In this document: positions 58,101 through 61,100 of the stretch, piece by piece
How the letters are laid out: each line of letters opens with the position of its first letter
Position numbering within the stretch: the stretch's first letter is position 1
Assembly (NCBI RefSeq): GCF_003991155.1
Contig: NZ_CP031293.1
Strand: one strand, 5' to 3'
From: Escherichia coli
GTDB taxonomy: Bacteria > Pseudomonadota > Gammaproteobacteria > Enterobacterales > Enterobacteriaceae
Length of the DNA stretch: 64,000 nt
Position numbers: made by a program

Positions 58101-61100
58101 AATGCTCTCGATCCGGTCGAATTAGCGGCAATTATTAATAAAAAGCATCATACTATAATTAATGGTAAAAAATTTAAAACTAGCCGGGCTATCTCTTGTC
58201 GATCCTTTAATCGTTATTTTTCTGTTTCGACAGATTACAGACCTAAACTTGAAGCACTATTAGCATGCTCACAAATGTTAGGTATAAATCAAGTTGTTGC
58301 ACATAACGGAAATGGTGGGAGAGAACGCATAGGTGAAACGGGGACAGTTTTAGGTCTTAACGCCCGTGACAGTAAACATGCTGGAAGAATGTTCAGCATG
58401 CATAATTGCCAAATTAACCCTGGTGCGGGGCCTGAGATAACCACTCCCTGGAAGTCTTACCAGCATGAAAAAAACAAAAATGGACTTATGCCTTTGATTA
58501 GAAGGCGCACAATGTTACAGCTCTGAACCATAGACAACATGAATATTAATGTTACTATCTGGTTGAGACTGTTGATAAAACGTAATAAGGAATGCTCTGT
58601 TCCTGCAACTGAACAGGCGTGAAACGCTATCCAACAGGATGGATACCGTTTTGTCAGCCAGTTTTATAGATCACACTTATGAGTATGCGTGTTTCATTTA
58701 CGGCCAGGAATGCTGATGATGACAACATTACTACCCGTTTTCACTAAGCCTTCCACGTTGGCGCTCAATGCTCTGCGCGCTGGTCGTATTTGCCGTTTCC
58801 TTCTTATCCCGGATGGAAGAATCCGCTGAACGTCGTTCGGCGGCAGTTGTAACACGCGTCGTTTGCTTACAGGGATTATGGCGGGTCGATTATGGATAAG
58901 AGTAAGCGCCATCTGGCGTGGTGGGTTGTCGGGTTACTGGCGGTGGCCGCTATCGTGGCGTGGTGGCTGTTGCGCCCGGCAGGTGTGCCGGAAGGCTTTG
59001 CTGTCAGTAATGGGCGCATTGAAGCGACGGAAGTGGATATCGCCAGCAAAATTGCCGGGCGTATCGACACCATTCTGGTGAAAGAAGGCCAGTTTGTTCG
59101 AGAAGGTGAAGTGCTGGCGAAGATGGATACTCGCGTGTTGCAGGAACAGCGAATGGAAGCCATCGCGCAAATCAAAGAAGCACAAAGTGCCGTTGCCGCC
59201 GCGCAGGCTTTGCTGGAGCAACGCCAAAGCGAAACTCGTGCCGCACAGTCGCTGGTTAATCAACGCCAGGCAGAACTGGACTCCGTAGCAAAACGTCATA
59301 CGCGTTCCCGCTCACTGGCCCAACGGGGGGCAATTTCTGCGCAACAGCTGGATGACGACCGCGCCGCCGCTGAGAGCGCCCGAGCTGCGCTGGAATCAGC
59401 AAAAGCCCAGGTTTCTGCTTCTAAAGCCGCTATAGAGGCGGCACGCACCAATATCATTCAGGCGCAAACTCGCGTCGAAGCCGCGCAAGCCACTGAACGG
59501 CGCATTGCCGCAGATATCGATGACAGCGAACTGAAAGCCCCGCGTGACGGACGCGTGCAGTATCGGGTTGCCGAGCCAGGCGAAGTGCTGGCGGCAGGTG
59601 GTCGGGTACTGAATATGGTCGATCTCAGCGACGTCTATATGACCTTCTTCCTGCCAACCGAACAGGCGGGCACGCTGAAACTGGGCGGTGAAGCCCGGCT
59701 GATCCTCGATGCCGCGCCAGATCTGCGTATTCCTGCAACCATCAGTTTTGTCGCCAGCGTCGCCCAGTTCACGCCAAAAACCGTCGAAACCAACGATGAA
59801 CGGCTGAAACTGATGTTCCGTGTCAAAGCGCGTATCCCACCGGAATTACTCCAGCAGCATCTGGAATATGTCAAAACCGGTTTGCCGGGCGTAGCGTGGG
59901 TGCGGGTGAATGAAGAACTTCCGTGGCCTGAAGACCTGGCGGTGAGGTTGCCGCAATGACGCATCTGGAACTGGTTCCCGTCCCGCCTGTCGCGCAACTG
60001 GCGGGCGTGAGCCAGCATTATGGAAAAACCGTTGCGCTGAACAATATCACTCTCGATATTCCGGCCCGCTGTATGGTCGGGCTGATTGGTCCGGATGGCG
60101 TCGGGAAGTCGAGCTTGTTGTCGTTGATTTCCGGTGCCCGCGTCATTGAGCAGGGCAATGTGATGGTGCTGGGCGGCGATATGCGCGACCCGAAGCATCG
60201 CCGTGACGTTTGCCCGCGCATCGCCTGGATGCCGCAGGGGCTGGGCAAAAATCTCTACCACACCTTGTCGGTGTATGAAAACGTCGATTTTTTCGCTCGC
60301 CTGTTCGGTCACGACAAAGCGGAGCGGGAAGTGCGAATCAATGAGCTGCTGACCAGCACCGGGTTAGCACCGTTTCGCGATCGTCCGGCAGGGAAACTCT
60401 CCGGCGGGATGAAGCAAAAACTTGGGCTGTGCTGTGCGTTAATTCACGACCCGGAACTGTTGATTCTTGATGAGCCAACAACGGGGGTTGACCCGCTCTC
60501 CCGCGCCCAGTTCTGGGATCTGATCGACAGTATTCGCCAGCGGCAGAGCAATATGAGCGTGCTGGTCGCCACCGCCTATATGGAAGAGGCCGAACGCTTC
60601 GACTGGCTGGTAGCGATGAATGCCGGAGAAGTGCTGGCAACTGGCAGCGCCGAAGAGCTGCGGCAGCAAACGCAAAGCGCCACGCTGGAAGAAGCATTTA
60701 TAAATCTGTTACCGCAAGCGCAACGCCAGGCGCATCAGGCGGTAGTGATCCCACCGTATCAACCTGAAAACGCAGAGATTGCCATCGAAGCGCGCGATCT
60801 GACCATGCGTTTTGGTTCCTTCGTTGCCGTTGATCACGTCAATTTCCGCATTCCACGCGGGGAGATTTTTGGTTTTCTTGGTTCGAACGGCTGTGGTAAA
60901 TCCACCACCATGAAAATGCTCACCGGACTGCTGCCCGCCAGCGAAGGTGAGGCGTGGCTGTTCGGGCAACCGGTTGATCCAAAAGATATCGATACTCGTC
61001 GCCGGGTGGGCTATATGTCGCAGGCGTTTTCGCTCTATAACGAACTCACCGTGCGGCAAAACCTGGAGTTACATGCTCGTCTGTTTCATATCCCGGAAGC

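What the first reader, a model, noticed from the sequence alone, without database searches (positions are those of the whole stretch)
58710..58829. Possible small ORF or leader peptide upstream of the yhiI-rbbA-yhhJ operon
An unannotated 37-39 codon ORF (MLMMTTLLPVFTKPSTLALNALRAGRICRFLLIPDGRIR) lies 60 bp upstream of yhiI on the same strand, with an AGGA about 7 nt before its third ATG. It is below the 60-aa ORF-track cutoff. It could be a regulatory leader peptide for the operon or a chance ORF.
Basis: inference. Interest (0 to 1): 0.25.

Follow-up and report, generated by a model that had tools for sequence, protein, structure and literature searches.

The report
Known small gene yhiY, upstream ORF
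The small ORF is the already described and experimentally confirmed E. coli gene yhiY, a 37-codon upstream ORF in the leader of the yhiI-rbbA-yhhJ exporter operon, so the finding is real but not new.

Summary
The ORF at 58710-58829 exists as described. It is yhiY (K-12 b4790), annotated in RefSeq at window 58716-58829 (37 aa, starting at the second of three ATGs), and it matches Pfam PF23514 'YhiY' end to end. Published work shows that it is translated (initiation-complex ribosome profiling) and that the protein is detected by mass spectrometry. The same literature reports RNA 3' ends just after its stop codon in a Rho-dependent termination region and lists yhiY-yhiI as a candidate uORF-regulated pair.

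New here: the start region (about 30 nt upstream plus the first codons) is invariant across Escherichia, Salmonella, Citrobacter, Pseudocitrobacter, Klebsiella, Raoultella and Kluyvera. The peptide is not conserved across those genera: its frame, length and end point change. Within Escherichia, codons 23-37 show purifying selection (7 synonymous vs 2 non-synonymous changes). Codons 11-22 look neutral. Codons 1-10 show no variation at all.

The ORF interior is C-rich and G-poor in every genus that has the uORF. The stop codon lies inside a conserved hairpin.

Best reading: a cis-acting regulatory uORF that modulates Rho-dependent premature termination. This mechanism is inferred, not shown. Novelty: already known.

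The parts
58531..58558 (+). Promoter-like site TAGACA-16 nt-(TG)TACTAT
   Evidence: Consensus scan. The homologous TAGACA...TGTTAGTAT is retained in E. albertii, B2-type E. coli, Citrobacter, Salmonella, Klebsiella and Kluyvera. The yhiI reporter primer of Adams et al. starts at 58565, 7 nt after the -10 hexamer.
58559..58661 (+). Lineage-specific extra segment of about 103 nt at the 5' end of the leader (approximate borders)
   Evidence: Absent from E. albertii, E. coli E69, Escherichia sp. E1V33 and B2-type E. coli. Single copy and present in 4282 of 5426 E. coli genomes. Folds on itself as a long stem.
58685..58744 (+). Invariant block: 31 nt upstream of the yhiY start, the Shine-Dalgarno sequence, and codons 1-10
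   Evidence: No variable site in 12 Escherichia haplotypes, against 14 of 62 sites in the 3' leader (Fisher p=5e-5). The core TGCGTGTTTCATTT..GGC.AGGA..GCTGATGATGAC.ACATT is invariant in 14 sequences from 6 genera and nearly intact in Kluyvera (one substitution, GCTGACGATGAC).
58706..58709 (+). Shine-Dalgarno-like AGGA for yhiY
   Evidence: Read directly from the sequence. It ends 6 nt before ATG 58716.
58716..58829 (+). yhiY coding sequence, 37 codons plus TGA (MMTTLLPVFTKPSTLALNALRAGRICRFLLIPDGRIR)
   Evidence: RefSeq CDS 'yhiY, protein YhiY' maps here. Pfam PF23514 scores 98.7 bits against a cutoff of 27. Weaver et al. place the start at the second of three AUGs. The window has Thr14 where K-12 has Pro14.
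58722..58805 (+). C-rich, G-poor interior of yhiY (candidate Rho-loading region)
   Evidence: C/G = 1.8, in the top 4.3% of all 84-nt windows of the 64-kb window on both strands. C/G is 1.6-3.2 in every genus that has the uORF, although the sequence there is not conserved.
58796..58819 (+). Small hairpin over the conserved TTCCTTCTTATCCCGGATGGAAG (codons 27-35)
   Evidence: Predicted in the single-sequence fold and in the consensus fold of 17 sequences. The DNA is conserved in Citrobacter although the uORF reads it in another frame there.
58823..58843 (+). 9-bp hairpin CCGCUGAAC-GUC-GUUCGGCGG that contains the yhiY stop codon
   Evidence: Fold. 93% of cells are paired across 17 sequences from 4 genera, against 22-46% when the register is slid. 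G-C/G-U/A-U and C-G/U-G/U-A series occur, but the shuffle control is not significant. No U-tract follows the hairpin, and no terminator-like site was called here.
58827..58849 (+). Span holding the two published Term-seq RNA 3' ends (58827 and 58849)
   Evidence: K-12 3630667 and 3630645 (-65 and -43 from the yhiI ATG) map to window 58827 and 58849. The -43 end has Rho score 3.34, is flagged as a significant Rho termination region, has intrinsic terminator score 2.14 (below 3) and is labelled 'uORF'. 58849 is 6 nt 3' of the hairpin.
58830..58891 (+). 62-nt spacer between yhiY and yhiI, conserved in four genera
   Evidence: Alignment A3: ACACGC...ACAGGGATTA.GGCGGGTCGA.TATG is nearly invariant in Escherichia, Salmonella, Citrobacter and Pseudocitrobacter.
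58892..59959 (+). yhiI (HlyD-family membrane fusion protein), first gene of yhiI-rbbA-yhhJ
   Evidence: ORF list and RefSeq annotation.
58679..58747 (+). Second, overlapping 22-codon ORF in another frame (MSMRVSFTARNADDDNITTRFH), status unknown
   Evidence: Mechanical ORF. This frame is open with an ATG across the invariant block in every genus, at 20-108 codons. It has no obvious Shine-Dalgarno sequence, and no evidence of translation was found.

Best explanation
The ORF is yhiY, a known translated 37-codon upstream ORF in the 5' leader of the yhiI-rbbA-yhhJ operon, which encodes an HlyD-family adaptor plus ABC transporter components. That identity is shown. The most likely mode of action is inferred. 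Transcription starts near 58565. Most transcripts end prematurely by Rho-dependent termination after yhiY, and the products are trimmed back to the hairpin that contains the yhiY stop codon. This would give the 3' end at 58849. The C-rich, G-poor interior of yhiY would serve as the Rho loading region. Ribosomes translating yhiY, or pausing at its conserved C-terminal ...IPDGRIR-UGA inside the hairpin, would cover that RNA. The efficiency or dwell time of yhiY translation would then set how much transcription reaches yhiI. The invariant start region would be where yhiY initiation is controlled.
For: Identity: the RefSeq yhiY CDS has the same frame and stop, and Pfam PF23514 scores 98.7 bits. 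Translation: initiation-complex profiling (Weaver et al. 2019), and mass spectrometry by top-down, DIA and PRM at about 1000-3000 copies per cell. Termination: a Term-seq 3' end 20 nt after the stop codon lies in a significant Rho region, with read coverage 762 to 101 without bicyclomycin and 792 to 351 with it. A yhiI 5'UTR+ORF lacZ fusion is more than 2-fold higher in rhoR66S, and the authors list yhiY-yhiI as a candidate uORF-regulated pair. Overproducing CspD, which attenuates termination, raises the yhiY operon. 5'-leader fragments of yhiI have been reported in E. coli and Salmonella. C>G composition is kept in all genera despite sequence turnover. The stop-codon hairpin is conserved. In Escherichia, codons 23-37 show 7 synonymous against 2 non-synonymous changes (p=0.002), while codons 11-22 look neutral.
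Against: No experiment links termination to yhiY translation. C>G skew is only suggestive of a rut site (top 4%, not extreme). The peptide is not conserved across genera. Citrobacter reads the 3' part in another frame. Kluyvera has only M-T-T-stop. In Klebsiella and Raoultella the ORF lacks the hairpin and stop and runs into yhiI. So any peptide-specific step cannot be general. The conserved 3' DNA persists in Citrobacter after the frame change, so part of the conservation is at the nucleotide level. Covariation in the hairpin does not beat the shuffle control. The protein accumulates to measurable levels, which also fits a trans-acting role.
Confidence: 0.55

Rival explanations
1. YhiY is a functional small protein acting in trans, for example as a partner or modulator of the YhiI-RbbA-YhhJ transporter encoded downstream, and its position upstream is simple co-expression.
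For: It is detected as an intact protein and quantified at about 1000-3000 copies per cell. Within Escherichia the C-terminal 15 codons are under purifying selection. It is present in 5412 of 5426 E. coli genomes. It is basic (net charge +5) and moderately hydrophobic, with a predicted helix at residues 14-29.
Against: Homologous proteins are confined to Escherichia and Shigella. The frame is lost or changed in Citrobacter, Kluyvera, Klebsiella and Raoultella, although yhiI is conserved there. Codons 11-22 evolve neutrally. The structure model has low confidence (pLDDT 68, pTM 0.24). Known leader peptides (TnaC, MgtL) were detected in the same mass-spectrometry study, so detection does not discriminate.
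Confidence: 0.2
2. The conserved entity is an RNA element of the leader: a regulator or small-RNA binding site, or a leader-derived small RNA. Translation of yhiY would then be incidental.
For: The start block shows no variation even at third codon positions. The 3' DNA is conserved in Citrobacter despite the frame change. Kluyvera keeps the block but not the ORF. A roughly 132-nt and a roughly 70-nt RNA from this leader were seen in Salmonella, and the leader fragment was previously proposed from deep sequencing of Hfq-associated RNA.
Against: Third-position periodicity in codons 23-37 within Escherichia is not expected from RNA-level constraint alone. Translation is documented. There is no Rfam match. 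The local fold of the start block is not better than shuffles (z = -0.9).
Confidence: 0.2
3. It is a classical amino-acid attenuator leader peptide (trpL or hisL type) that controls an intrinsic terminator through alternative hairpins.
For: It is a short ORF in a leader, followed by a GC-rich hairpin.
Against: There is no run of any one regulatory codon in the peptide. No U-tract follows the hairpin, and no terminator-like site was called there. The published intrinsic terminator score is 2.14, below the threshold of 3, and the site is Rho-dependent.
Confidence: 0.03

Closest known systems
yhiY (b4790) of E. coli K-12; Pfam PF23514
   Same: Same locus, strand, frame and stop. 36 of 37 residues are identical, with Thr14 in the window and Pro14 in K-12.
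   Different: Nothing of substance. The window is another E. coli strain, 100% identical to strain 7/2 over the intergenic region.
mdtU uORF of the mdtUJI operon (Adams et al. 2021)
   Same: A translated uORF in the leader of an exporter operon, with premature Rho-dependent termination and conservation concentrated at the C-terminus of the peptide. yhiY is listed in the same paper as a candidate of this kind.
   Different: For mdtU the dependence on uORF translation and the signal (spermidine) were shown. For yhiY neither is known. There is no sequence similarity.
tnaC leader of the tryptophanase operon (from general knowledge, not tested here)
   Same: A short leader peptide whose ribosome stalls at its UGA stop codon and thereby blocks Rho access next to the stop codon. 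yhiY likewise ends in UGA, within a structured region and just upstream of a Rho-dependent 3' end.
   Different: No stalling has been shown for YhiY, there is no shared motif, and the inducer is unknown.
toiL-topAI and mgtL-mgtA leaders (from general knowledge, not tested here)
   Same: uORF translation status controls Rho-dependent termination in the leader.
   Different: Those use defined signals (ribosome-targeting antibiotics; proline or Mg2+) and alternative RNA structures. None has been demonstrated for yhiY.

Membership tests
YhiY (Pfam PF23514 / RefSeq 'protein YhiY') | Sequence matches the family model above the curated cutoff over its full length | tested here: met
   98.7 bits against a cutoff of 27, residues 1-37 on profile positions 1-37.
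YhiY (Pfam PF23514 / RefSeq 'protein YhiY') | Located between yhiJ (or its absence) and yhiI, on the same strand as yhiI | tested here: met
   RefSeq features in strain 7/2, K-12, EDL933 and others.
uORF-controlled Rho-dependent leaders (mdtU, tnaC, toiL, mgtL type) | Short ORF inside the 5' leader of the regulated operon | tested here: met
   The published 5' end maps to 58565, yhiY is 58716-58829, and yhiI starts at 58892.
uORF-controlled Rho-dependent leaders (mdtU, tnaC, toiL, mgtL type) | The uORF is translated in vivo | not testable with these tools
   Published evidence is positive: initiation profiling and mass spectrometry.
uORF-controlled Rho-dependent leaders (mdtU, tnaC, toiL, mgtL type) | Rho-dependent termination downstream of the uORF, before or early in the first gene | not testable with these tools
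   Published evidence is positive: Rho score 3.34, flagged as significant, and a reporter more than 2-fold higher in rhoR66S.
uORF-controlled Rho-dependent leaders (mdtU, tnaC, toiL, mgtL type) | C-rich, G-poor RNA that ribosomes on the uORF would cover | tested here: met
   C/G is 1.8 in the window (top 4.3%) and 1.6-3.2 in all genera with the uORF. This is suggestive only.
uORF-controlled Rho-dependent leaders (mdtU, tnaC, toiL, mgtL type) | Termination or readthrough depends on uORF translation or stalling | not tested
   No experiment was found in the literature searched. It cannot be computed.
Sequence-specific arrest peptides | Peptide-level conservation of the C-terminal residues | tested here: inconclusive
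   Escherichia shows 7 synonymous against 2 non-synonymous changes in codons 23-37 (p=0.002). I-P-D/E ... R-stop is shared with Salmonella and Pseudocitrobacter. The frame is lost from the MMTT start in Citrobacter, and the ORF is truncated or extended in Kluyvera, Klebsiella and Raoultella.
Classical attenuator leader peptides (trpL, hisL, leuL type) | Run of codons for the regulating amino acid | tested here: not met
   No such run in MMTTLLPVFTKPSTLALNALRAGRICRFLLIPDGRIR.
Classical attenuator leader peptides (trpL, hisL, leuL type) | Intrinsic terminator (GC hairpin plus U-tract) after the leader ORF | tested here: not met
   The hairpin 58823-58843 is followed by CAGUUGUAAC. No terminator-like site was called there, and the published intrinsic score is 2.14, below 3.
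Any Rfam RNA family | Match at or above the gathering score | tested here: not met
   The only hit is AdoCbl-II at 17.6 bits against 36.5, E=0.86, inside the strain-specific extra segment.

The most novel reading that the evidence does not exclude
YhiY may be a sensing arrest peptide. Its selected C-terminal segment (GRICRFLLIPDGRIR, ending I-P-D-G-x-x-R-UGA) would hold the terminating ribosome on the stop-codon hairpin in response to a small molecule, perhaps a substrate of the YhiI-RbbA-YhhJ exporter or a ribosome-targeting compound. That would block Rho and switch the pump on, in a TnaC-like manner. The invariant start block, which is open in two overlapping frames, would add a second layer of control. 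In Citrobacter this arrangement lets the same C-terminal motif be reached from a different start codon.
Probability: 0.12. Interest if true: 0.6.

Novelty: already known. Interest (0 to 1): 0.2.

Why it matters
As a discovery it does not matter much. The gene was named in 2019, it has a Pfam family, and its possible uORF role has already been proposed in print. The operon's regulation and the exporter's substrate are still unknown, so yhiY remains an open, testable case of uORF-linked Rho termination. The comparative anatomy found here gives concrete mutants to build. That anatomy comprises an invariant start block, a neutral middle, a selected C-terminus in Escherichia, a conserved stop-codon hairpin and natural frame variants in other genera.

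Tried and rejected
- **NCBIfam scan of YhiY:** no model.
- **First homolog search:** It was repeated with the 46-aa GTG-extended ORF.
- **Exhaustive HMMER search of 1.84 billion representatives:** only 3 hits. The two that could be identified (P0005, P0026) are Escherichia/Shigella-type sequences, and P0027 was not characterised further.
- **Rfam:** nothing real.
- **Extra 5'-UTR segment as a mobile repeat:** rejected. It is single copy per genome. The three hits in the plasmid collection are chromosome-sized E. coli records.
- **Riboswitch-prediction paper mentioning yhiI:** the predicted site is 6.6 kb away and irrelevant.
- **FlhDC SELEX paper:** its site lies inside yhiI and does not concern the leader.
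- **Raghavan et al. 2011 (PMC3166833):** not held.
- **Hairpin covariation:** register-specific pairing is clear, but the shuffle control is not significant, so only structural conservation is claimed.
- **Start-block stem (UGUUUCAU/AUGACAACA):** the fold is no better than shuffles, and it is partly broken in Klebsiella, so it was not adopted.
- **Structure prediction:** low confidence, one helix, not informative.
- **CsrA-type GGA motifs and a GcvB-type CA-rich site:** noticed by eye but not tested, so not claimed.

Full report
**Observation.** The window contains the ORF as described. Three in-frame ATGs lie at 58710, 58716 and 58719, and a TGA lies at 58827-58829. The ORF is on the same strand as the 355-codon ORF at 58892-59959, with 62 nt between them. 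AGGA lies at 58706-58709, so it ends 6 nt before the second ATG and 9 nt before the third. ORF length alone is not significant: 35% of shuffles of the 365-nt intergenic region contain an ATG ORF of at least 37 codons.

**Identity.** The intergenic region matches 5412 of 5426 complete E. coli genomes, always once and on the chromosome, and RefSeq annotates 'yhiY: protein YhiY' under the match. In a 100% identical strain the CDS maps to window 58716-58829, flanked by yhiJ (DUF4049), yhiI (HlyD family) and rbbA. In K-12 MG1655 it is b4790 at 3630665-3630778. K-12 differs from the window at two positions in 394 nt, one of which makes residue 14 Pro where the window has Thr. The 37-aa protein matches Pfam PF23514 'YhiY' at 98.7 bits against a cutoff of 27, end to end. 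NCBIfam has no model.

**Published evidence.**
- Weaver et al. 2019 found the ORF (their ORF9) by ribosome profiling with initiation-complex inhibitors. They placed the start at the second of the three AUGs. Of the 38 tagged candidates in that study, all but ORF24 and ORF56 were detected.
- A 2025 proteomics study detected YhiY by top-down, DIA and PRM methods at roughly 1000-3000 copies per cell.
- Adams et al. 2021 found Term-seq 3' ends 43 and 65 nt upstream of the yhiI ATG. The -43 end lies in a significant Rho termination region. Coverage drops from 762 to 101 without bicyclomycin and from 792 to 351 with it. The Rho score is 3.34, the intrinsic terminator score is 2.14, and the site is labelled 'uORF'.
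- In the same paper a yhiI 5'UTR+ORF lacZ fusion is more than 2-fold higher in rhoR66S, and yhiY-yhiI is listed among candidate uORF-dependent regulatory sequences.
- These 3' ends map to window 58849 and 58827. The reporter's forward primer starts at 58565, 7 nt after the -10 hexamer of the only promoter-like site found, at 58531-58558.
- Overproducing CspD, an attenuator of termination, raises the yhiY operon.
- 5'-leader fragments of yhiI were reported earlier in E. coli and in Salmonella, where they appear as 'sRNA6' of about 132 nt and about 70 nt. The Salmonella fragment had been proposed from deep sequencing of Hfq-associated RNA.

**Distribution of the protein.** Word-indexed and exhaustive protein searches recover Escherichia/Shigella sequences and nothing identifiable from other genera. 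These include a few frameshifted or truncated variants.

**Conservation at the DNA level.** I fetched yhiI loci from one genome per species and examined the upstream regions.

The start of the uORF, ATGATGAC(A/C)ACATT, plus about 30 nt upstream is invariant in Escherichia, Salmonella, Pseudocitrobacter, Citrobacter, Klebsiella and Raoultella. It is nearly intact in Kluyvera. The reading frame downstream is not conserved:

| Lineage | uORF from the MMTT start | End relative to the yhiI ATG |
|---|---|---|
| Escherichia | 37 aa, ending LLIPDGRIR | -63 |
| Salmonella, Pseudocitrobacter | 45 aa, ending IPDENLR / LLIPEGNRR | -64 |
| Nine Citrobacter species | 46 aa, ending SFSSRMESPAE, after a shared 1-nt deletion | TAG at -60 |
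| Klebsiella, Raoultella | 78-98 codons, out of frame with yhiI | Inside yhiI |
| Kluyvera | M-T-T-stop | Early in the leader |
| Hafnia | Unrelated 50-codon uORF | -204 to -52 |
| Morganellaceae | Nothing comparable | - |

**Selection within Escherichia.** Eleven in-frame haplotypes were compared.
- **58685-58744 (-31 through codon 10):** no variable site, against 14 of 62 sites in the downstream leader (p=5e-5).
- **Codons 11-22:** minimum changes by codon position are 7/5/4, roughly 6 synonymous and 13 non-synonymous. This is as expected without constraint.
- **Codons 23-37:** changes by codon position are 1/1/7. All seven third-position changes are synonymous, against two non-synonymous ones (R27H in B2 strains, L29F in strain E69). 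The binomial p is 0.002 and the rate ratio is about 0.1.

The C-terminal 15 residues are therefore under peptide-level purifying selection in Escherichia. The start region is under an additional nucleotide-level constraint.

In Citrobacter the 3' part shows no third-position excess in its own frame (4/7/2). The ancestral frame still reads FLLIPDGISR and ends at the same TGA. The pattern in that frame is 2/4/7, which is not significant with 13 changes. Because the DNA stays conserved after the frame change, part of the 3' conservation must be at the RNA or DNA level.

**RNA features.**
- A 9-bp hairpin at 58823-58843 contains the stop codon. Across 17 sequences from four genera it is paired in 93% of cells, against 22-46% in slid registers. 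G-C/G-U/A-U and C-G/U-G/U-A series occur, but the shuffle control is not significant.
- The hairpin is not followed by a U-tract, and no terminator-like site was called there. The Rho-associated 3' end at 58849 is 6 nt past its base. This fits trimming back to a protective stem after termination further downstream, which is an inference.
- The uORF interior is C-rich and G-poor. C/G is 1.8 in the window, in the top 4.3% of all windows of that size. It is 1.6-3.2 in every genus with the uORF, although the sequence there turns over. The start of yhiI is strongly G-rich.

**Mechanism.** The evidence best fits a cis-acting uORF whose translation, or whose ribosome dwell time at the stop codon, masks a Rho loading region and so sets readthrough into yhiI-rbbA-yhhJ. 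What is shown: yhiY is translated, there is a Rho-dependent termination region, and the anatomy is conserved. What is inferred: the link between the two, and the location of the rut site.

Rivals are a trans-acting small protein, an RNA element with incidental translation, and a classical attenuator. The structure model for the small-protein rival is low confidence (pLDDT 68, one helix at residues 14-29). The classical attenuator is rejected because there are no codon runs and no intrinsic terminator.

**Verdict.** The finding is real and correctly located, but it is the already known gene yhiY. The leader-peptide idea is reasonable, already published as a hypothesis, and still unproven.

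Noticed in passing
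window 58559-58661 (approximate): A segment of about 103 nt at the very 5' end of the leader, directly after the -10 hexamer, is present in 4282 of 5426 E. coli genomes. It is absent from B2-type E. coli, E. albertii and cryptic Escherichia. It is single copy, has imperfect terminal inverted repeats and folds as a long stem. It lengthens the yhiY 5' UTR from about 50 to about 150 nt.
   Followed up: partly
window 58679-58747 (+): A second ORF in another frame (MSMRVSFTARNADDDNITTRFH) overlaps the invariant block. It is open with an ATG in all seven genera, at 20-108 codons. Its stop codon lies exactly where invariance ends in Escherichia. Dual-frame coding could explain the lack of synonymous change in yhiY codons 1-10. 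It has no Shine-Dalgarno sequence and no evidence of translation.
   Followed up: partly
L007-L013, L015, L040 (Citrobacter), about -237 to -64 from the yhiI ATG: A 1-nt deletion shared by nine Citrobacter species moves the MMTT start out of the ancestral C-terminal frame. It also fuses the second frame (ATG AGT ATG CGT...) to that ancestral frame. The result is a 57-codon ORF ending FLLIPDGISR at the conserved TGA in the hairpin.
   Followed up: partly
L017 (Kluyvera) and L027 (Hafnia), 300 nt upstream of yhiI: Kluyvera keeps the promoter and the conserved start block, but the uORF is only ATG ACC ACA TGA. Hafnia has an unrelated 50-codon uORF with an AGGA Shine-Dalgarno sequence at the same position (-204 to -52).
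   Followed up: partly
L089 (E. coli E423) 792-1660: In this strain an IS1 element lies directly upstream of, and replaces, the 5' end of yhiY. rbbA in the same strain is annotated as a pseudogene with an internal stop, which suggests decay of the operon.
   Followed up: no
window 58705-58712, 58810-58819, 58867-58881: Three conserved GGA-containing motifs were seen: CAGGAATG at the yhiY Shine-Dalgarno sequence, CGGATGGAAG near the end of yhiY, and TTACAGGGATTATGG before yhiI. By eye they resemble CsrA binding sites. The CA-rich GACAACATTAC at the yhiY start resembles a GcvB-type target. Neither idea was tested.
   Followed up: no
window 58569-58637: A sub-threshold Rfam match to the AdoCbl-II riboswitch aptamer (17.6 bits against a gathering score of 36.5, E=0.86) lies inside the strain-specific extra segment. 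It is most likely chance.
   Followed up: no
window 56904-58526 and upstream; L086, L002: yhiJ (DUF4049) and a second DUF4049 gene lie upstream of the promoter in this strain. B2-type E. coli and E. albertii lack yhiJ at this position, so the region upstream of the yhiY promoter is variable between lineages.
   Followed up: no
L005 (Escherichia sp. E1V33): An extra C in a C-run (CCTTCCCCCG) frameshifts yhiY in this draft genome. A protein from related strains (P0018) is in frame, so this may be strain-specific or a sequencing error.
   Followed up: no
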